DNA of 64,000 bases. It comes from an uncultured Massilimicrobiota sp. (GTDB taxonomy: Bacteria > Bacillota_I > Bacilli_A > Erysipelotrichales > Coprobacillaceae). The first letter of the stretch is position 1; each line of letters starts with the position of its first letter. The notes beneath the pieces are model-generated. The model searched no databases, was not told where the DNA came from, and worked only from the letters and a program-made list of their open reading frames with translations. Positions 3,118 through 48,484 of the stretch are shown here, in pieces. The position numbers were made by a program, and so were the translations under genes. The DNA lies in NCBI GenBank assembly GCA_944325245.1, contig CALUZM010000002.1:5082-69081 (forward strand), written 5' to 3'.

Positions 3118-3249
3118 TTTCTTATCCTCCCTTAATTCATCTTTATTATAGCATTTATTTATAAAAAAACTAGAGAAAAATGTTACGTCCATCAATAAAC
3201 ACTATAAAAAAGGTTTGTATTTTTTCTAAAAAAGAATATAATAGATATG

Positions 3250-3330
3250 AGCCAGGGGCGCATTTGCTGAGAAAGGTGAAAGCCTTGTCCCTTATGATCT
3301 GAACTGGGTAATGCCAGCGTAGAGAGTGCA
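3250..3330 (+). ncRNA. TPP (THI-box) riboswitch
   Basis: GGGG..GCTGAGA..CCCTT..GATCTGAACTGGGTAATGCCAGCGTAG core, followed by a terminator hairpin at about 3347-3378 and a thiamine transporter gene. Confidence 0.92.
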
Positions 3331-3407
3331 AATAATGTTTTTTGTGACTTTTTTACGTGGGTAGAAAAGTCTTTTTTATTTGTGGCTTGAATGAAAGGAG
3401 AAGAGTT

Positions 3408-7766: not shown

Positions 7767-7809
7767 AGTATTGAAATTTCATCAAAAAGATGGTAATAAT
7801 ATTTATAAA

Positions 7810-8032
7810 GTTATGATTTGAGAACACCTTATAAACATGTTTAAAAGCGACTTTTGGATGGTGAAAGCAAAAGAAACATATATAATGTGGAACACTCAAT
7901 GAACTGGATAGGAGAAATGTGAGTAGACTATCCCGCAAGACTGCGTTATGGTAAGAGAGCATGATCGTCAGATGATGAATGAGGATGGTACCGCGATATT
8001 TCAAGTCGTTCCTTTAAGGAATGACTTTTTTT
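7810..8032 (+). ncRNA. T-box leader (Asn specifier AAC at 7891-7893)
   Basis: Stem I TTGAG..CTCAA with GGTGAAA loop, specifier AAC, T-box GAGGATGGTACCGCG, terminator AAGTCGTTCC-TTTAA-GGAATGACTTTTTT; upstream of asnS. Confidence 0.88.
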
Positions 8033-8049
8033 GTTAGGAGGAGAAAACA

Positions 8050-9435
8050 ATGTTTGAGTTTATGACTGTAAGAGAATTATATGAAATGGTGTTAGCTGGA
8101 GAAGCCATGGAAACAGAAAGCCTGGAATATGTGGAATTAGATGGTTGGGTACGTACAAATCGTGATAATGGTAAAGTTGGTTTTATTGCATTAAATGATG
8201 GAACGTATTTTAGAAACTGTCAGATTGTATATTTACAGGAAAATTTATCTAATTATGATGAAGTAAAACATATCAGCACAGGAAGTGCTATACGTGTATT
8301 AGGAAAATTTAAATTGACACCTGATGCGAAACAGCCATTTGAAATTGAAGCAACCCAAGTTGTTGTAGAAGGTGCCTGTGACGATGATTTCCCATTACAA
8401 AAGAAGAGACACTCTTTTGAATATATGCGTGAAATCCCACATCTTCGTCCTCGTGCCAATACATTTTATGCGATTTTTAGATTAAGAAGTGTCTTGTCTA
8501 TGGCTATTCATGAATTTTTCCAGTCACAAGGATTCGTTTATGTTCATACACCTATTATTACAAGTAATGATGGTGAAGGTGCTGGCGAAATGTTTAGAGC
8601 CACAACAATTGATGATACAAATTTTGATAAAGATTTCTTTGGTAAAGAAGCTTTCTTAACAGTTACAGGACAGCTTCATGTTGAAGCTTTCTGTATGGCA
8701 TTTAGAGATGTCTATACATTTGGACCTGCTTTTAGAGCTGAAAATTCTAATACTTCACGTCATGCAAGTGAGTTTTGGATGATTGAACCAGAAATTGCTT
8801 TTGCCGATTTGGAAGATGATATGGATTTGATTGAAGACATGGTTAAATATTGTATTGATTACGTTTTAGAAAATGCACCTGAGGAAATGAAATTCTTTGA
8901 ACAGATGATTGATAAAGATTGTATTCAAAGAATTACACATGTCAAAAATAGTGAATTTAAACGTATGACTTATACTGAAGCTATTGAAATTCTTGAAAAA
9001 GCAGATGTTAAATTTGAGAATAAAGTTGAATGGGGTATGGATTTAAATAGTGAACATGAACGTTATATTTGTGAACAGATTGTTGGTGGACCAGTGTTCC
9101 TAACAGATTATCCAAAAGAAATCAAAGCCTTTTATATGCGTTTAAATGATGATGGAAAAACAGTGGCTGCATGTGATTTACTGGTTCCAGGTATTGGGGA
9201 ACTTGTTGGAGGAAGCCAACGTGAAGAAAGATATGAAGTTCTTGAAAAAATTATGGATGAAAAACAAATGTCTAAAGAAGGACTTCAATGGTATATGGAT
9301 TTAAGAAGATTTGGTGGATGTAAACATGCTGGTTTTGGTTTAGGATTTGATCGTTTCTTGATGTATTTAACTGGTATGCAAAACATTAGAGATGTTGAAC
9401 CATTCCCAAGAACACCAAGAAATTTAAAATTTTAA
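8050..9435 (+). CDS. asnS: Asparagine--tRNA ligase
   Basis: [78 protein letters not shown]. Confidence 0.97.
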
Positions 9436-9463
9436 AATATAACGGAAAACCGTTATATTTTTT
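9436..9463 (+). terminator. Intrinsic terminator after asnS
   Basis: AAATATAACGG-AAAA-CCGTTATATTT followed by Ts. Confidence 0.75.
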
Positions 9464-9516
9464 CATATTCATTCATTTTATTTTGTAGTATAATGAAAAC
9501 ACGAGGTGAAAAAATA

Positions 9517-11001
9517 GTGAATGAAATCATCTTTATCAATACTTTTTTCAATATTGTTTTTCGTAATGAATTAGCTTATATGCGAGATTTTATGATATCT
9601 TATCAATATATGCAAAATTTTATCCAATGGCTGGATAAACGTCAGATAGAATGTCCTGTTTTATGCTCTATTACTGAAGACGAATATGCTTTTTTATCTC
9701 GTTTGATGAAAGCAGAAGATGTTGACCATGTTTTGCATAAGCCTTTTTCTATAGAAATGGAAAACTTGGCACGGGAATATGAAGATGCAACACATATCTT
9801 ATATGTCCCTGGATTTCAAGAAGTCTCAAATGATTTTTTAGAAACAAATTCTTATAATCATATATATTTTTATCATATTCCAGGATATTTTCATCGCAGT
9901 GATCTGTCTTTCTTTGATCCTTTTCCTGCTTTTTTCTGTGCTTTACGTCATGTTGATTTATGGCCTGGATGTTTAATTTTTAAGGGACAGCAAGCTGTTT
10001 TTGCACCCATCCATAAGCAGGAAGATATGAAACAATTGTTTCATTATATTGAACAAGAAGTCAATCTTTTTGAAGTCTATAATAATTACTATCAAAGTGA
10101 TGCGTATTTTATTCAATTGAGTGATTTACATTTAGGAAAGGATAAACGTCAAAGGGGGCTCACGCGTCTTTATGCATCTTTGGATGAATTGATTCCGAGA
10201 TTACCATCTCCATGGCCTATTCAGATTTTGATTACAGGAGATTTGATGGAATCACCTAATCGAAAAAATATGTATATGGCGAATGATTTTATGAACAGTC
10301 TTAAAAAAAGATATAAAGCGAATGTGACTTTTATTTTGGGAAATCATGATGTTATTGTGCATGGCTTTAACTTTGCCAGAAACCAAAAAAGTAAGGTTAT
10401 CGCTTATCTGTTAGGAGAGAATATTAAAGTTCTGGAACAGGAGAAAATTATTATTATTAAGATGGATACAACCAGTGAAGGGAATCTGGCTAGAGGAAAA
10501 GTTGGAGAAAGACAATTGGCAGAAATTGATGATGAATTATCAGCAATTGACCATATTGAAGATTATACTTTACTGCTTATGCTGCATCATCATGTTTATC
10601 CAATTAACAAAGCAGAGTTTATTAAGACAAAATGGCATGAAAAAACATTTATCAATCGTATCATTGAAACTTCAAAGGTTTTAGTGGATGCACCATTATT
10701 GATTGATTGGATTCAAAAAAGACATATTCATTATGTTTTTCATGGACATAAACATCTTCCGTTTTTTAGAAAAGAAGATGATTGTTACTATATAGGAGCA
10801 GGTAGTGCAACTGGAGGATTGAAAGAAAGTCGCAGTCGTTATATTTCTTATAATATTATGAAATATGATATGCGTGAGAAAAAAATGAAAATCTGTATGA
10901 TTTTTTATGATGATAAAGCCAAAGCAGAAAGGCAGCGTGTTGAAGTTTATTTATTTGAAGGAGGAAATAATCATGAAACTTGTGGATCGCATGAAGGATG
11001 A
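9517..11001 (+). CDS. Calcineurin-like metallophosphoesterase (Icc/CpdA-type) with an unrecognised ~195-aa N-terminal domain
   Basis: All five motifs present: SDLHLG, TGDL, GNHD, HHH, GHKH. GTG start at 9517 behind GAGGTG and a TATAAT at 9489-9494. Confidence 0.85.
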   Translation: MNEIIFINTFFNIVFRNELAYMRDFMISYQYMQNFIQWLDKRQIECPVLCSITEDEYAFLSRLMKAEDVDHVLHKPFSIEMENLAREYEDATHILYVPGFQEVSNDFLETNSYNHIYFYHIPGYFHRSDLSFFDPFPAFFCALRHVDLWPGCLIFKGQQAVFAPIHKQEDMKQLFHYIEQEVNLFEVYNNYYQSDAYFIQLSDLHLGKDKRQRGLTRLYASLDELIPRLPSPWPIQILITGDLMESPNRKNMYMANDFMNSLKKRYKANVTFILGNHDVIVHGFNFARNQKSKVIAYLLGENIKVLEQEKIIIIKMDTTSEGNLARGKVGERQLAEIDDELSAIDHIEDYTLLLMLHHHVYPINKAEFIKTKWHEKTFINRIIETSKVLVDAPLLIDWIQKRHIHYVFHGHKHLPFFRKEDDCYYIGAGSATGGLKESRSRYISYNIMKYDMREKKMKICMIFYDDKAKAERQRVEVYLFEGGNNHETCGSHEG

Positions 11002-12364
11002 AGAATTAGGAACAGCTTTACTTTATAATTTTACAAAAGGTTATGGACAACCTGTTCCTATAGAACTTTATGATGTGGTTTTACCACTTCTTTATAATGA
11101 TTTTATAAGAGAACATATTTTATCTTTAACATCACTTCAGGAATGTATATATCAAGGTGTACAAAAAGATGAACATTTTAAACAACATATCTTAGAAGAT
11201 ATTGAAAATGATAAGACAATGACTTCAAAAGCTTTAGGTGTAGCTATGATTCAACGTATTTTAAAGTTTGAAATTGTTGATACAACTATGTGTGGCGTGG
11301 CTTTACCAACAGATATTTTAGATTTAAATGAAGCTATTCAATTAGGAAAGATGTTTCAAAATGTATCCTTGGAAGATTTTATGACTTTACTTCGTCAAGA
11401 AGATGTTCATATTGTTGTTTTACAGAGTGCTTCTGTTGGAAAGGATATAGATTTATCTCAAATTTGTTCGTTAGGACAAGTGACGATGTATGAAGATACC
11501 AAGCCTTCAGAAATAAGAGGACGTATCTTAGGAGCAGATATTGTCATTACCAATAAAAATCAAATGACAAAAGAAGTTCTGGAAGGTTTAAACCGTTTGA
11601 AATTGATATGTCTGTTTGCAACAGGAACAAATAATGTTGATTTAACATATTGTCGAGAACATGGTATTAAAGTTGCAAATGTTAAAGATTATTCAACAAC
11701 AACTGTGGCTCAACATACATTGGCTTTATTAATGCATTTGGTTGAAAAAAATGTAGCTTATGATCATTTTGTGAAATCAAAAGAGTACGCAAGAAGTGAA
11801 CGTTTTAGCTATTTTGATGATGTTTTCCACGATGTGTCATCTATGACATGGGGAATTGTTGGATTGGGTCATATTGGTCGACAGGTTGCAGGTATTGCGA
11901 CTGCTATGGGGGCTAAAGTGCAATATTATTCAACAAGTGGAAAAAATGCAACAAGTGATTATCAGCAGGTAGATTTTGATACTTTATTAAAAACATCTGA
12001 TATCATCACGATTCATGCACCGTTAAATGATCAGACACATTATTTATTTAATGAAGAAGCTTTAAGAAAAATGAAAAAGACAGCTTATCTGATTAATGTT
12101 GGACGCGGTGGCATTATTGAAGAAAAAGCTCTTGTTAAGGTATTAAATGAAGGACATCTATCAGGTGTTGGTTTAGATGTTTTTGAACATGAACCATTAT
12201 TAGAAGATGATGTGATTTATCAGATTCAAGATATGGATAAAGTGATTTTAACACCACATATTGCATGGGGATCTATTGAAGCTAGACAAAGATGTGTCAA
12301 TGAAGTTTATCAAAATATTTTGGCTTTTCTTAAAGGTGAAGATCGCAGTATTGTCAATCTATAA
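10973..12364 (+). CDS. Fusion: ~140-aa N-terminal domain (ABC-3C middle-component/DUF6521-like) + D-isomer-specific 2-hydroxyacid dehydrogenase (glycerate dehydrogenase-like)
   Basis: The C-terminal ~320 aa carry ATGTNNVDL, GIVGLGHIG, HAPLNDQT, INVGRGG, DVFEHEP, TPHIAWGS. The N-terminal domain is in frame and there is no Met at the junction. ATG 10973 has an AAGGAGG RBS and overlaps the upstream gene. Confidence 0.8.
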   Translation: MKLVDRMKDEELGTALLYNFTKGYGQPVPIELYDVVLPLLYNDFIREHILSLTSLQECIYQGVQKDEHFKQHILEDIENDKTMTSKALGVAMIQRILKFEIVDTTMCGVALPTDILDLNEAIQLGKMFQNVSLEDFMTLLRQEDVHIVVLQSASVGKDIDLSQICSLGQVTMYEDTKPSEIRGRILGADIVITNKNQMTKEVLEGLNRLKLICLFATGTNNVDLTYCREHGIKVANVKDYSTTTVAQHTLALLMHLVEKNVAYDHFVKSKEYARSERFSYFDDVFHDVSSMTWGIVGLGHIGRQVAGIATAMGAKVQYYSTSGKNATSDYQQVDFDTLLKTSDIITIHAPLNDQTHYLFNEEALRKMKKTAYLINVGRGGIIEEKALVKVLNEGHLSGVGLDVFEHEPLLEDDVIYQIQDMDKVILTPHIAWGSIEARQRCVNEVYQNILAFLKGEDRSIVNL

Positions 12365-12379: not shown

Positions 12380-12509
12380 AGAAAAAATATAAAAAGAAGG
12401 AGGAGTCTACGTCAGTAGCAAAGCATGTACGGTCATCAGATCGGAATTAACGCCTGTGGACTAGAAATGAGGACGAAGCAGGAAAATTTGTTATCAGTAG
12501 CATAGTGTT

Positions 12510-13325
12510 ATGGAACAATTGATTATTGCAATAGTGATTATTGCCTTAGGTTTTTATGTGTTTAAGTTTTATCCTTTTGAAAAAGGAAATGTTATGAAAC
12601 TGGTTATTGGAGCCATTTTCATTATTTTAACGGCTATCTGTAAAAGATTAGCTATTATGATTCCATTATTTGGAGCAGAGAGTCTTAAGATTGGATTTGA
12701 ATATATTCCTTTAATGTTAGCAGGATATTTTTTATCACCCAGTTATGCCTTTGTAGTTGGTTTATGTAGTGATGTGATTGGTTTGATTTTGGTTCCTACT
12801 GGATTTCCATTTTTTGGATTTACTTTAGGAACAATTCTTGTCAGTGTTATTCCTTCACTGATTCGTGAACATTCTAAAAAAATCAGTCCACAGAATGTAC
12901 TACGTATTGTTGTGGGGTTGATTTTTGTTTTAGGGATAGGGGCTTCTATTTATATTGGACAGCTTGATTCCATAAGTATTTCAGAAACGACTTATCAGTT
13001 ACATTTTCAACAAAAAATCACATTGATTTCTTTGTGTTTATTATTGATGATGATATTTATTGTCATCATTTATATCATTAAACATAGGATTAATGTACAG
13101 GAAGCCAAAACTTTTTCAACATGGATATTATGTGTAGTTGCGACAGAAATTGTTGTCACACTTTGTTTAACACCATTATGGCTGGATATGATGTATCACA
13201 TTCCTTGGACAATTTCACTATGTATAAGAGTTGTGAAAGAATGTGCTGTATTACCAATTGAGATATTTATAGGATATTGTTTAATACCTCTCATACAAAG
13301 AATATGGATACGTTTAGAAAAATAA
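12510..13325 (+). CDS. ECF transporter S component, folate (FolT)-family-like, elongated
   Basis: LKIGFEYIPLMLAG..LSP..A..VG..SD.IG.....GFPFFGFTL pattern and C-terminal LTPLWL..MY...W.....IRV.KE typical of FolT-type S components. Confidence 0.75.
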   Translation: MEQLIIAIVIIALGFYVFKFYPFEKGNVMKLVIGAIFIILTAICKRLAIMIPLFGAESLKIGFEYIPLMLAGYFLSPSYAFVVGLCSDVIGLILVPTGFPFFGFTLGTILVSVIPSLIREHSKKISPQNVLRIVVGLIFVLGIGASIYIGQLDSISISETTYQLHFQQKITLISLCLLLMMIFIVIIYIIKHRINVQEAKTFSTWILCVVATEIVVTLCLTPLWLDMMYHIPWTISLCIRVVKECAVLPIEIFIGYCLIPLIQRIWIRLEK

Positions 13326-32146: not shown

Positions 32147-32171
32147 ATAGCAGTAAATGAAAAGTAGTGGA

Positions 32172-32280
32172 AAGAAGAAGTGCCTACTTCTCGCCTGAGT
32201 GTCAAGGATGCTAGGCTTATGTCACTAAGATTAATATCTTAATGTCAATTTGTGGGTGCTTTATGTACTCACTTTTTATT
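32172..32280 (+). ncRNA. L20 leader (ribosomal protein autoregulatory leader)
   Basis: GAAGTGCCTACTTCTCGCCTGA..TGTGGGTGC..ACTCACTTTTT resembles the Bacillus infC leader (GAAGCACCCGCTTCTCACCTGA..GTGGGTG); upstream of infC. Confidence 0.8.
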
Positions 32281-32311
32281 TAAACTACACAATTTATAGG
32301 AGGTGTCTATT

Positions 32312-39604: not shown

Positions 39605-39654
39605 GAAAAGATTTGCAAAATAATAAAGATATGATATAATATCTTGTGTTTAGA

Positions 39655-39870
39655 ATCGATGAAAAGGAGTAGTAGTTGTTGATACTTTTTAGAGAGTCTA
39701 TGGGTGGTGAAAATAGACAGGTTAGGCAATGAACTCGCCTTGGAGATACAAAGATGAAAAGAGTAGTTTTTGTCGTTAACTGCGTTAAAGTTTTGAGAGC
39801 ATATATGGATGTCATATATGAACTAAGGTGGTATCGCGATCAAGTCGTCCTTAGAGGGGCGACTTTTTAT
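39655..39870 (+). ncRNA. T-box leader (Leu specifier CTC at 39734-39736)
   Basis: AGTA box, AGAGA bulge, GGTGAAA loop, GAA-CTC specifier, AACTAAGGTGGTATCGCG, terminator AAGTCGTCC..GGGGCGACTTTTT. Confidence 0.9.
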
Positions 39871-48321: not shown

Positions 48322-48350
48322 TAGACAAAACTACAGACGTTTGTTACAAT
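48322..48350 (+). promoter_or_regulatory. Sigma-A promoter upstream of the purine riboswitch
   Basis: TAGACA ... TACAAT, about 17 nt apart. Confidence 0.6.
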
Positions 48351-48357
48351 AGGCGTG

Positions 48358-48428
48358 GTTATCATATATGTCTGGGAATTGGCTCAGTCGTTTCTACCCC
48401 GTTACCGTAAATAATGGGACTATGATAG
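48358..48428 (+). ncRNA. Purine riboswitch, guanine/hypoxanthine type (discriminator C at 48420)
   Basis: TCATA-TAT-P2(L2 GAATTGG)-GTTTCTAC-P3(L3 CCGTAAA)-GAC-TATGA; terminator GTCTATC-GCAG-GATAGAC-TTTTTTT at about 48442-48467. Confidence 0.92.
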
Positions 48429-48484
48429 ATGCTTTTGATGTGTCTATCGCAGGATAGACTTTTTTTATTGGAGGAGGGACTATA

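What the first reader, a model, noticed from the sequence alone, without database searches (positions are those of the whole stretch)
9517..12364. Overlapping phosphoesterase + middle-component::dehydrogenase gene pair: a candidate repurposed ABC-3C/Lamassu-like module without its ATPase
Seen: two genes with their own promoter (TATAAT 9489-9494) after the asnS terminator overlap by 29 nt (10973-11001). Both have unusual architectures. Established: ABC three-component conflict systems (Lamassu/DdmABC type) are effector + middle component + SMC-like ABC ATPase, and calcineurin-like phosphoesterases occur among conflict-system effectors. Inference: this locus keeps an effector-like gene and a middle-component-like domain in the expected order, but an NAD-dependent dehydrogenase sits where the ATPase should be. 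It is either a defence remnant captured into metabolism or a new two-gene system in which a redox enzyme is tethered to or gates a phosphoesterase. Best candidate for an undescribed system in this window.
Basis: partly seen in the sequence, partly recalled or inferred. Interest (0 to 1): 0.8.

Follow-up and report, generated by a model that had tools for sequence, protein, structure and literature searches.

The report
Phosphoesterase plus Lamassu-adaptor–dehydrogenase gene pair
A two-gene operon kept by nearly a whole family of gut Firmicutes pairs a defence-type phosphodiesterase with an ordinary-looking dehydrogenase that carries the small adaptor subunit (LmuC) of the Lamassu anti-phage system, without the rest of that system; its function is untested.

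Summary
Two genes overlap by 29 nt. Gene A (9517-11001) is a metallophosphoesterase. Gene B (10973-12364) is an N-terminal domain fused to a D-2-hydroxyacid dehydrogenase.

The N-domain of gene B is a real Lamassu LmuC / ABC-3C MC3 homologue. Its orthologues pass the Pfam cut-off. hhalign to an MC3 protein from a canonical LmuA-LmuC-LmuB operon gives 95.9%. The AF2 model's only good PDB matches are three LmuC chains (TM 0.71-0.75).

Gene A is not a Lamassu effector, because it has no CTD docking domain. Its catalytic domain is related to DS-9A, a validated anti-phage phosphatase. No LmuB ATPase lies within 6-8 kb of the pair at any of about 150 loci.

The pair is not a mobile island. It sits after asnS in conserved synteny across Coprobacillaceae, follows the genus phylogeny and is under purifying selection. 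The MC3 domain was lost at least twice, with the A-dehydrogenase pair kept.

My reading is an exapted Lamassu adaptor that tethers two active enzymes. Whether its role today is immune or metabolic is open. Interest is moderate to high.

The parts
9434..9461 (+). Terminator-like hairpin that ends the asnS unit, upstream of gene A
   Evidence: 12-pair stem, 4-nt loop, T-run.
9489..9494 (+). TATAAT hexamer, a possible -10 element with a poor -35
   Evidence: Sequence. Not called by the promoter scan.
9517..11001 (+). Gene A: 494-aa metallophosphoesterase (GTG start, GAGGTG at 9503-9508)
   Evidence: The AF2 model has pLDDT 83.
9517..9783 (+). Gene A residues 1-89: all-helical N-terminal subdomain. 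It has no family match and was found only in Coprobacillaceae orthologues.
9784..10101 (+). Gene A residues 90-195: alpha/beta 'WPG' subdomain (DLSFxDPFxxFxxALxxxDxWPGxLIF). It is shared with the single-gene Bacteroidota relative L071.
   Evidence: hhalign 98.2% to L071.
10102..10956 (+). Gene A residues 196-480: calcineurin-like phosphoesterase domain. All five metal and catalytic motifs are invariant (D203, H205, D242, N276-H277, H357-359, H409, H411). It is of the DS-9A type.
10973..11001 (+). 29-nt overlap of gene A's end with gene B's start (GGAGG at 10960-10964), an arrangement typical of translational coupling
   Evidence: The junction is an overlap or a gap of at most about 27 nt in the fused orthologous loci, as read from the coordinates.
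10973..12364 (+). Gene B: 463-aa fusion protein
10973..11407 (+). Gene B residues 1-145: LmuC / MC3-like adaptor domain
11408..12361 (+). Gene B residues 146-463: D-isomer-specific 2-hydroxyacid dehydrogenase. GxGxxG, R378, D402, E407 and H429 are invariant in 35 sequences.

Best explanation
This is a vertically inherited two-gene operon of the family Coprobacillaceae. The window is closest to Massilimicrobiota and matches chicken-gut metagenomes.

Gene A is a catalytically intact phosphodiesterase. Its catalytic domain is of the DS-9A type, with structural similarity to GpdQ, Rv0805 and SMPDL3A. It carries its own two-part N-terminal domain.

Gene B is a catalytically intact D-2-hydroxyacid dehydrogenase. 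Its N-terminus is an exapted Lamassu middle component (LmuC, MC3 family).

Shown:
- the homologies;
- the intact active sites;
- the tight, conserved coupling of the two genes;
- purifying selection on every domain;
- the absence of LmuB and of an LmuA CTD.

Inferred:
- The two proteins form one complex, probably A2B2 built on the obligate dehydrogenase dimer.
- In that complex the LmuC-like domain does what LmuC does in Lamassu: it holds an enzyme subunit through protein-protein contacts. Here it docks the phosphodiesterase onto the dehydrogenase instead of docking LmuA onto LmuB.
- DNA sensing has been dropped, because the three basic DNA-contact residues of Salmonella LmuC are S, S and G here.
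- The module is now a domesticated, constitutively kept function rather than a mobile immune system.
- It most likely hydrolyses a small phosphodiester, either nucleotide-derived or glycerophosphodiester-like.
- The dehydrogenase either processes the released hydroxy compound or gates the hydrolase according to NAD(P)(H) or substrate occupancy.
For: MC3 / LmuC identity:
- The window scores 22.7 bits against Pfam MC3; orthologues score 28.5-34.6 bits against a gathering score of 23.2.
- An exhaustive HMM search of 1.84 billion proteins found only 50 hits. The only full-length hits without a dehydrogenase part that I followed (P0179, P0180) lie in CTD7-LmuA / MC3 / LmuB-type operons; the ATPase carries DUF3732 in L078 and is cut by the contig end in L079.
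- hhalign gives 95.9%.
- P0179 matches LmuC of PDB 9hqu at 4.6e-17.
- The AF2 model (pLDDT 92.4) matches LmuC chains 9hqu_D, 9uxh_D and 9ny5_C at TM 0.71-0.75, and the next hit has TM 0.18.

Gene A:
- All metallophosphoesterase motifs are invariant in 47 orthologues.
- hhalign to DS-9A gives 98.4%, and NCBIfam DS9_1 scores 72 bits.
- Foldseek finds GpdQ, Rv0805 and SMPDL3A.

Coupling and inheritance:
- By my count from the tables, 58 species-representative loci are informative. Of these, 48 have A followed by the fused B, 4 have A followed by a dehydrogenase without MC3, 5 have A alone and 1 is decayed.
- In metagenomes, 65 of 68 informative loci are fused.
- The order ackA-thiT-DUF402-tsaE-tsaB-rimI-tsaD-rex-asnS-A-B is kept down to 44% identity.
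- The gene A tree groups sequences by genus.
- GC content matches the flanks.

Selection: omega is 0.05-0.12 for the A catalytic domain, 0.16-0.43 for the A N-domain, 0.14-0.29 for MC3 and 0.05-0.18 for the dehydrogenase.

Dehydrogenase active site: invariant in 35 sequences.

LmuC's role as a contact hub, and its DNA contacts R59, K62 and K72, come from bioRxiv 10.1101/2025.03.14.643221. Those residues map to S51, S54 and G62 in the window protein.
Against: - No direct evidence of an A-B complex. No multimer prediction or co-purification was possible.
- A mirror-tree test showed that all domains co-vary (partial r 0.67-0.86), with no specific MC3-to-gene A signal.
- Gene A keeps its whole N-terminal domain in lineages without MC3 or without gene B. 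So that domain is not solely an MC3 dock, and gene A can work alone.
- Both non-housekeeping parts have immune relatives (Lamassu, DS-9). That fits a live defence role as well as it fits domestication.
- The substrate is unknown.
- The residue mapping onto LmuC rests on a roughly 25%-identity alignment.
- dS is near saturation (about 1), so the omega values are rough.
Confidence: 0.45

Rival explanations
1. The pair is a live, non-canonical immune module fixed in the core genome. It would be a DS-9-like two-enzyme system in which the HAD phosphatase partner is replaced by a dehydrogenase. A Lamassu-derived LmuC domain would sequester the phosphodiesterase until infection changes the dehydrogenase's ligand or redox state.
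For: - Two independent immune homologies sit in one operon: LmuC / MC3 and a DS-9A-type catalytic domain.
- DS-9A catalytic mutants lose defence (bioRxiv 10.1101/2025.01.08.631726).
- DS-9 lies between a restriction enzyme and Hachiman on a Klebsiella plasmid, and also on prophage contigs.
- The other relatives of gene A outside the family are single genes in mobile or viral contexts (L071, L073, L160).
- Repeated loss of MC3 or of gene B, and faster evolution of the two non-catalytic domains, resemble the turnover seen in accessory immune genes.
- In Lamassu, LmuC helps sequester the effector.
Against: - Family-wide synteny next to asnS and tsaD, inheritance that follows the genera and host-like GC content are atypical for defence genes.
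- There is no LmuB, no CTD, no PUA-like domain and no HAD partner.
- PADLOC gives no hit for gene B and only a weak candidate hit (PDC-S10) for gene A.
- In Thomasclavelia, gene A abuts asnS, which suggests housekeeping-type transcription.
Confidence: 0.3
2. The pair is a purely metabolic enzyme pair, for example a phosphoester hydrolase feeding a glycerate, glycolate or hydroxypyruvate-type dehydrogenase. The MC3 domain would be a structurally tolerated relic with no role in linking the two proteins.
For: - The dehydrogenase passes the NCBIfam equivalog cut-off for D-2-hydroxyacid dehydrogenase.
- Its nearest solved relatives are glycerate, glyoxylate and phosphoglycerate dehydrogenases.
- The A-dehydrogenase linkage persists where MC3 is cleanly deleted (Kandleria L032, L038, L063, L065).
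- The top fold match of gene A is a glycerophosphodiesterase.
Against: - The MC3 domain is under purifying selection (omega 0.14-0.29).
- Its N-terminal 45 residues are nearly invariant across the family.
- It is retained in about 48 of 58 informative species loci, which is unlikely for an inert relic over family-level divergence.
- Gene A's specific relatives are immune or mobile, not metabolic.
Confidence: 0.15
3. The MC3 similarity is a chance match of a small helical domain, and the gene pair is a fortuitous neighbourhood.
For: - The window protein alone scores just under the Pfam gathering score (22.7 against 23.2).
- PADLOC's LmuC models do not hit it.
Against: Four independent lines agree. 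The three LmuC chains are the only structural matches above TM 0.3 among those listed. tblastn of a true LmuC hits the window at 10988-11401, covering residues 8-156 of its 157. Co-occurrence is about 90% across species.
Confidence: 0.02

Closest known systems
Lamassu / ABC-3C / DdmABC systems of the Cap4-CTD7 + MC3 class (Salmonella LmuACB, PDB 9hqu; V. cholerae DdmABC)
   Same: The N-domain of gene B is a homologue of the LmuC (MC3) subunit in sequence profile and fold. As in those operons, it is encoded directly after, and overlapping, an enzyme-encoding gene (L078 and L079 show the canonical order).
   Different: - There is no LmuB (DUF3732 SMC-like ATPase) within 6-8 kb of the pair at any locus.
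- The upstream enzyme has no CTD7 and is not a nuclease.
- The LmuC-like domain is covalently fused to a dehydrogenase.
- The LmuC DNA-contact residues are not conserved.
- The locus is core and syntenic rather than patchy and mobile.
DS-9 (DefensePredictor; NCBIfam NF053862 'anti-phage phosphoesterase' plus a HAD-IA phosphatase)
   Same: It is a two-gene operon whose first gene is a roughly 490-550-aa protein with an N-terminal accessory domain and a C-terminal metallophosphatase. That phosphatase belongs to the same subfamily, sharing the LARG-x-VG-x-RQL and LVDA...W...Y..HGHxH inserts. The second gene encodes a small-molecule enzyme.
   Different: - Gene A scores 72 bits against a cut-off of 420.
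- Its N-domain is not the PUA-like domain of DS-9A.
- The partner is an MC3-dehydrogenase, not a HAD phosphatase.
- DS-9 is carried on plasmids and prophages, whereas this pair is chromosomal and vertically inherited.
Stand-alone D-2-hydroxyacid dehydrogenases (PRK08410/HprA-like; PDB 5tx7) and CtBP-type NAD(H)-sensing scaffolds
   Same: Residues 146-463 of gene B form a complete, apparently active member with an invariant catalytic triad and an invariant Rossmann motif. From my own knowledge, CtBP shows that this fold can act as an NAD(H)-dependent protein-interaction switch.
   Different: No described member carries a Lamassu LmuC domain; a literature search found nothing on this. A sensing role here is only an inference.
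Single-gene mobile relatives of gene A: L071 (Chitinophagaceae) and L073 (Tangfeifania) in Bacteroidota, and L160 (a viral contig)
   Same: L071 and L073 share the 'WPG' subdomain plus Metallophos architecture at 29-31% identity, and hhalign confirms the WPG subdomain for L071. L160 matches residues 123-450 at 24% identity.
   Different: They have a different N-terminal helical part and no MC3 or dehydrogenase partner. They are flanked by transposases and integrases or by HigBA-like genes, or lie on a viral contig.

Membership tests
Lamassu / ABC-3C (LmuACB) | SMC/Rad50-like ABC ATPase LmuB (DUF3732 / LmuB_C) encoded in the operon | tested here: not met
   tblastn with a true LmuB (L078) found nothing in the 64-kb window or in any of the roughly 150 Coprobacillaceae loci, each with 6-8 kb of flank. 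The gene tables show none. The rest of the genome could not be searched.
Lamassu / ABC-3C (LmuACB) | Middle component of one of the MC1-MC8 families | tested here: met
   Pfam MC3 scores 22.7 bits in the window and 28.5-34.6 bits in orthologues. hhalign gives 95.9%. Foldseek matches LmuC chains at TM 0.71-0.75.
Lamassu / ABC-3C (LmuACB) | Effector (LmuA) with an N-terminal enzyme domain and a C-terminal CTD1-12 docking/oligomerisation domain (CTD7 pairs with MC3) | tested here: not met
   No CTD family was found in gene A or in any of 47 orthologues at E<=1. hhalign against a CTD7 LmuA gives 0.3%. The enzyme domain is C-terminal.
Lamassu / ABC-3C (LmuACB) | Patchy distribution in mobile or defence-island contexts | tested here: not met
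   Synteny after asnS is conserved across the family and the gene tree follows the genera. Canonical L078 sits beside an integrase, a reverse transcriptase and an HNH gene.
Lamassu / ABC-3C (LmuACB) | Anti-phage or anti-plasmid activity | not testable with these tools
   This needs an experiment.
LmuC (MC3) as characterised in Salmonella LmuACB | Basic DNA-contact residues R59, K62 and K72 | tested here: not met
   They map to S51, S54 and G62 through P0179. These columns vary among orthologues. The alignment has about 25% identity, so confidence is moderate.
DS-9 (NF053862 DS9_1 plus a HAD phosphatase) | Equivalog-level match to DS-9A | tested here: not met
   71.9 bits against a cut-off of 420. 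The catalytic domain is homologous nonetheless (hhalign 98.4%).
DS-9 (NF053862 DS9_1 plus a HAD phosphatase) | PUA-like N-terminal domain and a downstream HAD-IA phosphatase | tested here: not met
   DS-9A has PF24405 at residues 5-179. The gene A N-domain against it gives hhalign 0.1%. The downstream gene is the MC3-dehydrogenase.
Calcineurin-like metallophosphoesterase (PF00149) | Five metal-binding and catalytic motifs (DxH, GD, GNH[DE], H, GHxH) | tested here: met
   PF00149 scores 40.8 bits against a gathering score of 21.5. D203, H205, D242, N276, H277, H357-359, H409 and H411 are invariant in 47 sequences.
D-isomer-specific 2-hydroxyacid dehydrogenase | Family profile above the cut-off; GxGxxG and the catalytic Arg-Glu-His | tested here: met
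   NF006263 scores 394.9 bits against a cut-off of 389, and PF02826 scores 182.6 bits. G297, G299, G302, R378, E407 and H429 are invariant in 35 sequences.

The most novel reading that the evidence does not exclude
This could be an ATPase-independent descendant of Lamassu. In it, an NAD(P)(H)-binding dehydrogenase has taken over the sensor role of LmuB. The fused LmuC domain would keep a DS-9A-type phosphodiesterase sequestered. An infection-induced shift in NAD(H) or in a 2-hydroxy/2-oxo-acid metabolite would then release or activate it. That would make the pair a new class of metabolite-gated immune module, fixed in the core genome of a whole bacterial family.
Probability: 0.15. Interest if true: 0.85.

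Novelty: new variant of a known kind. Interest (0 to 1): 0.6.

Why it matters
Lamassu middle components have been described only as subunits of the LmuA-LmuC-LmuB machine. This locus shows one of them surviving for family-level evolutionary time without the SMC-like ATPase and without its cognate effector tail. It is covalently attached to a metabolic enzyme and coupled to a phosphodiesterase whose nearest characterised relative is an anti-phage protein.

Two outcomes would both be informative:
- It could be a clean case of an immune component being domesticated into core physiology.
- It could be a minimal, ATPase-free way of gating an effector.

It also offers a natural experiment. Sister lineages have the domain (Sharpea, Catenibacterium) or lack it (Kandleria), so they can show what LmuC-type adaptors contribute on their own.

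Tried and rejected
- **Gene A as a Lamassu effector: rejected.** No CTD was found in 47 orthologues and hhalign to a CTD7 LmuA gave 0.3%.
- **Gene A's N-domain as the PUA-like domain of DS-9A: rejected**.
- **Other architectures for gene A's N-domain.** A profile search of 5.8 billion proteins returned only Coprobacillaceae fragments.
- **Homologues of the MC3 domain on plasmids:** none found. Gene A matched one unannotated phage record weakly.
- **Sequence search of PDB with the MC3 profile:** only noise. The link to LmuC needed the intermediate P0179 or the fold comparison.
- **Expression and co-transcription.** No RNA runs hold this sequence. The runs found are DNA metagenome contigs and gave nothing on transcripts.
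- **Mirror-tree test for which gene A domain co-evolves with MC3: uninformative.** All parts co-vary.
- **The 'split' MC3 | dehydrogenase variant (P0006; L001-L004, L101) as proof that the domains work apart: weakened.** It is a 1-nt deletion in an A9 run relative to Faecalibacillus faecis. The called downstream ORF lacks the first beta-strand, so slippage may restore the fusion.
- **Metagenome scan for distant gene A relatives next to MC3 or LmuB.** The 80 loci returned were all Coprobacillaceae-type, and the 71 weaker ones were cut off.
- **The ABC-3C source paper (Krishnan et al. 2020)** is not held in the library.
- **The YydB-YydD lead from Foldseek (9a6c_B)** could not be followed in the literature.
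Full report
**1. The observation**

The region holds two same-strand genes. Gene A runs 9517-11001. It starts at GTG, with GAGGTG seven bases upstream. The in-frame ATG at 9493 lies inside the putative -10 element and would add eight residues that orthologues lack. Gene B runs 10973-12364, with its ATG preceded by GGAGG at 10960-10964. The two genes overlap by 29 nt.

A terminator-like hairpin closes asnS at 9434-9461. TATAAT is present at 9489-9494. The -35 is poor, however, and promoter-like sites here are no commoner than in shuffled sequence. An own promoter is therefore plausible but not shown.

Pfam and NCBIfam give the following:
- Gene A has a calcineurin-like phosphoesterase domain at residues 198-443, behind about 195 residues with no family.
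- Gene B has a marginal MC3 hit (residues 14-100; 22.7 bits against a gathering score of 23.2). This is followed by a complete D-2-hydroxyacid dehydrogenase (NF006263, 394.9 bits against a cut-off of 389).

The description is correct.

**2. Is the N-domain of gene B really a Lamassu / ABC-3C middle component?**

Yes. Four lines of evidence agree.

- *Orthologues pass the Pfam threshold.* They score 34.6, 32.8 and 28.5 bits.
- *Its nearest stand-alone relatives sit in canonical Lamassu operons.*
  - An exhaustive HMMER pass over 1.84 billion representative proteins, using the domain profile, found only 50 hits.
  - Nearly all are Coprobacillaceae-type fusions or fragments. Two others, P0179 and P0180, are proteins of 157 and 163 aa.
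  - Both sit in textbook Lamassu operons. A CTD7-bearing effector that PADLOC calls LmuA comes first, then MC3, which PADLOC calls LmuC.
  - Third is an LmuB-type ATPase. It carries DUF3732 in L078. In L079 it is cut by the contig end but matches the L078 LmuB at 2e-31.
  - The L078 operon lies beside an integrase, a reverse transcriptase and an HNH gene.
- *Profile and sequence links reach a solved LmuC.* hhalign of the domain profile against P0179 gives 95.9% over 133 columns. P0179 in turn matches the LmuC chain of the Salmonella LmuACB structure 9hqu at 4.6e-17. Its neighbouring ATPase matches LmuB of the same entry at 3e-153.
- *The fold matches LmuC and nothing else.* An AF2 model of residues 1-145 (pLDDT 92.4) finds three LmuC chains as its only good PDB matches: 9hqu_D, 9uxh_D and 9ny5_C, at TM 0.71-0.75. 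The fourth hit has TM 0.18.

The Gruber-lab preprint (bioRxiv 10.1101/2025.03.14.643221) places V. cholerae DdmABC and Salmonella LmuACB in the Cap4-CTD7 / MC3 class. It describes LmuC as a central contact hub that ties the C-terminal domain of LmuA to the LmuB coiled coils and head. It also contacts DNA through R59, K62 and K72. Mapped through P0179, those residues are S51, S54 and G62 in the window protein and vary among orthologues. DNA binding of the Salmonella kind is therefore probably not retained.

**3. What gene A is**

All five metallophosphoesterase motifs are invariant in 47 orthologues. The AF2 model (pLDDT 83) resembles GpdQ, Rv0805, Lmo2642, SMPDL3A and B. subtilis YydB.

Its specific sequence relative is DS-9A. 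NCBIfam's 'anti-phage phosphoesterase' model scores 72 bits, far below the equivalog cut-off of 420. hhalign nonetheless gives 98.4% across the catalytic domain, including its characteristic inserts.

DS-9 comes from the DefensePredictor study. It is a metallophosphatase plus a HAD phosphatase, and catalytic mutants of DS-9A lose defence. On a Klebsiella plasmid it lies between a restriction enzyme and Hachiman, and it also occurs on prophage contigs.

Gene A is not a Lamassu effector:
- No CTD family hits it or any of 47 orthologues.
- hhalign to a CTD7 LmuA gives 0.3%.
- Its enzyme domain is C-terminal rather than N-terminal.

Its N-terminal region has two parts. Residues 1-89 form a helical part that was found only in Coprobacillaceae. 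Residues 90-195 form an alpha/beta 'WPG' module. This module is shared with single-gene relatives in Bacteroidota, which lie among transposases and integrases or beside a HigBA-like pair. It is unrelated to the PUA-like domain of DS-9A.

**4. Distribution**

A scan of one genome per species found 65 loci, 61 of them Coprobacillaceae orthologues. The genera include Massilimicrobiota (closest, 79-82%), Longibaculum, Stoquefichus, Coprobacillus, Catenibacterium, Sharpea, Kandleria, Eggerthia, Thomasclavelia, Faecalibacillus, Beduini and Fimiplasma.

By my count from the tables, 58 loci are informative:

| State | Loci |
|---|---|
| A followed by fused MC3-dehydrogenase | 48 |
| A followed by a dehydrogenase with the MC3 domain cleanly absent (Kandleria clade; L063/L065) | 4 |
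| A alone (Beduini clade; L064) | 5 |
| Decayed (L074) | 1 |

In 80 metagenomic loci, 65 of 68 informative ones are fused. The A-B junction in the fused loci is an overlap or a gap of at most about 27 nt, as read from the coordinates.

Upstream synteny (ackA, thiT, DUF402, tsaE, tsaB, rimI, tsaD, rex, asnS) holds down to 44% identity, while the downstream genes vary. A neighbour-joining tree of gene A groups sequences by genus. It implies that the fusion is ancestral, that MC3 was lost at least twice and that gene B was lost at least twice (the tree is rough). GC content matches the flanks. No LmuA or LmuB homologue occurs in the window or within 6-8 kb of the pair at any locus.

**5. Selection**

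Nei-Gojobori estimates on five close pairs gave these ranges. dS is about 1, so the values are approximate.

| Region | omega |
|---|---|
| Gene A catalytic domain | 0.05-0.12 |
| Gene A N-domain | 0.16-0.43 |
| MC3 domain | 0.14-0.29 |
| Dehydrogenase | 0.05-0.18 |
| asnS | 0.03-0.05 |

All parts are constrained, the two non-catalytic domains less so. The first 45 residues of the MC3 domain are almost invariant across the family. The dehydrogenase Rossmann motif and its catalytic Arg, Glu and His are invariant in 35 sequences, including the MC3-less ones.

**6. Interpretation**

The homologies, the intact active sites, the tight coupling, the vertical inheritance and the absence of LmuB and of a CTD are shown. 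The rest is inference.

The most economical model has three elements:
- A Lamassu LmuC gene was captured and fused to a dehydrogenase.
- That dehydrogenase is, or became, the partner of a DS-9A-type phosphodiesterase.
- The fused domain acts as a protein-protein adaptor holding the two enzymes together, probably as A2B2 on the dehydrogenase dimer.

The A-dehydrogenase linkage outlives loss of MC3, and gene A outlives loss of gene B. So A is the core, the dehydrogenase is its usual partner, and MC3 is an accessory tether or regulator.

Family-wide synteny argues that the module is domesticated. The immune ancestry of both unusual parts, and their repeated loss, keep a live defence role open. 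I put that at about 0.3. A purely metabolic pair with an inert MC3 relic is less likely, at about 0.15, given the constraint on that domain. Chance similarity is excluded.

**7. Comparison and novelty**

The locus works partly like Lamassu, in that an LmuC-type adaptor sits next to an enzyme gene. It also works partly like DS-9, in that a phosphatase of the same subfamily is paired with a small-molecule enzyme. It is a member of neither, because defining features of both were tested and not met.

I found no description of an LmuC-dehydrogenase fusion. I class it as a new variant of a known kind.

**8. Limits**

- No multimer prediction, expression data or whole-genome search was possible.
- The substrate is unknown.
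- The 'split' variant is a homopolymer frameshift of uncertain meaning.

Noticed in passing
window 12396-12509 (+), upstream of the 271-aa membrane-protein gene 12510-13325: A roughly 115-nt intergenic element is nearly invariant across Massilimicrobiota, Longibaculum, Stoquefichus, Coprobacillus MAGs and Catenibacterium, while its flanks differ. Its core is GGAGGAGTCTACG..AGTAGCAAAG.ATGTACGGTC-(variable loop)-GATCGGAATTAACGCCTGTGGACTAGAAATGAGG..GAAGCAGGAAA. It travels with the membrane gene where other genes are inserted (L005, L014). RNAalifold gives 4 helices and 21 pairs, 2 of them with compensatory changes. No Rfam family reaches threshold; the only match is RAGATH-18 at 23 bits, E 0.039. 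It is a candidate undescribed riboswitch or leader.
   Followed up: partly
L001-L004 8001-9382; L101; protein P0006: In a Faecalibacillus faecis-like lineage the MC3 domain and the dehydrogenase are separate ORFs. The cause is a 1-nt deletion in an A9 run at the domain junction. The variant is seen on at least 43 contigs from many samples. The called downstream ORF lacks the first beta-strand, so transcriptional or translational slippage may restore the fusion.
   Followed up: partly
L074 (CP139560.1, Coprobacillaceae bacterium CR2/5/TPMF4, complete genome) 7900-9570: Here both genes appear decayed. Only fragments of gene A (residues 296-423), of MC3 and of the dehydrogenase remain in separate short ORFs. 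This looks like a natural loss of the whole module in one isolate.
   Followed up: no
L005 11146-14133 and L014 (Longibaculum-like), between gene B and the conserved RNA element: A 482-aa protein with no family, a DUF3791 protein that matches the PADLOC candidate PDC-M13A at 1e-27, and a 70-aa ORF are inserted here. The spot downstream of gene B accepts accessory genes.
   Followed up: no
Foldseek hit 9a6c_B: Gene A's model matches B. subtilis YydB in an integrative model of a YydD-YydB complex (TM 0.40 over 332 columns). I could not establish whether yydBCD is an ABC-3C-type system with a phosphoesterase effector. No usable literature was held.
   Followed up: partly
L008/L036 (Thomasclavelia) 7985-8001: Gene A starts 15 nt after the asnS stop, with no room for a terminator or promoter. 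There the pair is probably co-transcribed with the T-box-controlled asnS, unlike in the window.
   Followed up: no
window 7804-8016, 39650-39855, 48342-48442, 32166-32286, 3244-3343: Rfam finds T-box leaders (one of them before asnS), a purine riboswitch, an L20 leader and a TPP riboswitch. This is an ordinary housekeeping context.
   Followed up: no
gene B residue S320 (window about 11930-11932): The residue after beta-strand 2 of the Rossmann fold is an invariant Ser in 35 orthologues, rather than the acidic residue usual in strictly NAD-dependent members. This hints at NADP(H) or dual cofactor use. The inference rests on general knowledge.
   Followed up: no
L072 4717-5598 (Coprobacillaceae MAG): A 293-aa paralogue consists of the catalytic domain only (40% identity to gene A residues 196-480). 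It lies in an unrelated context after a gene that looks like a dephospho-CoA kinase (my reading of its N-terminus; not checked).
   Followed up: no
L076 (Klebsiella plasmid NZ_AP021931) and L161, L165, L168 (IMG/VR contigs): DS-9 (a PUA-like metallophosphatase plus a HAD-IA hydrolase) sits between a restriction endonuclease and Hachiman on an IncFIA plasmid. It also occurs on viral contigs; on L168 it lies next to what looks like an integrase.
   Followed up: partly
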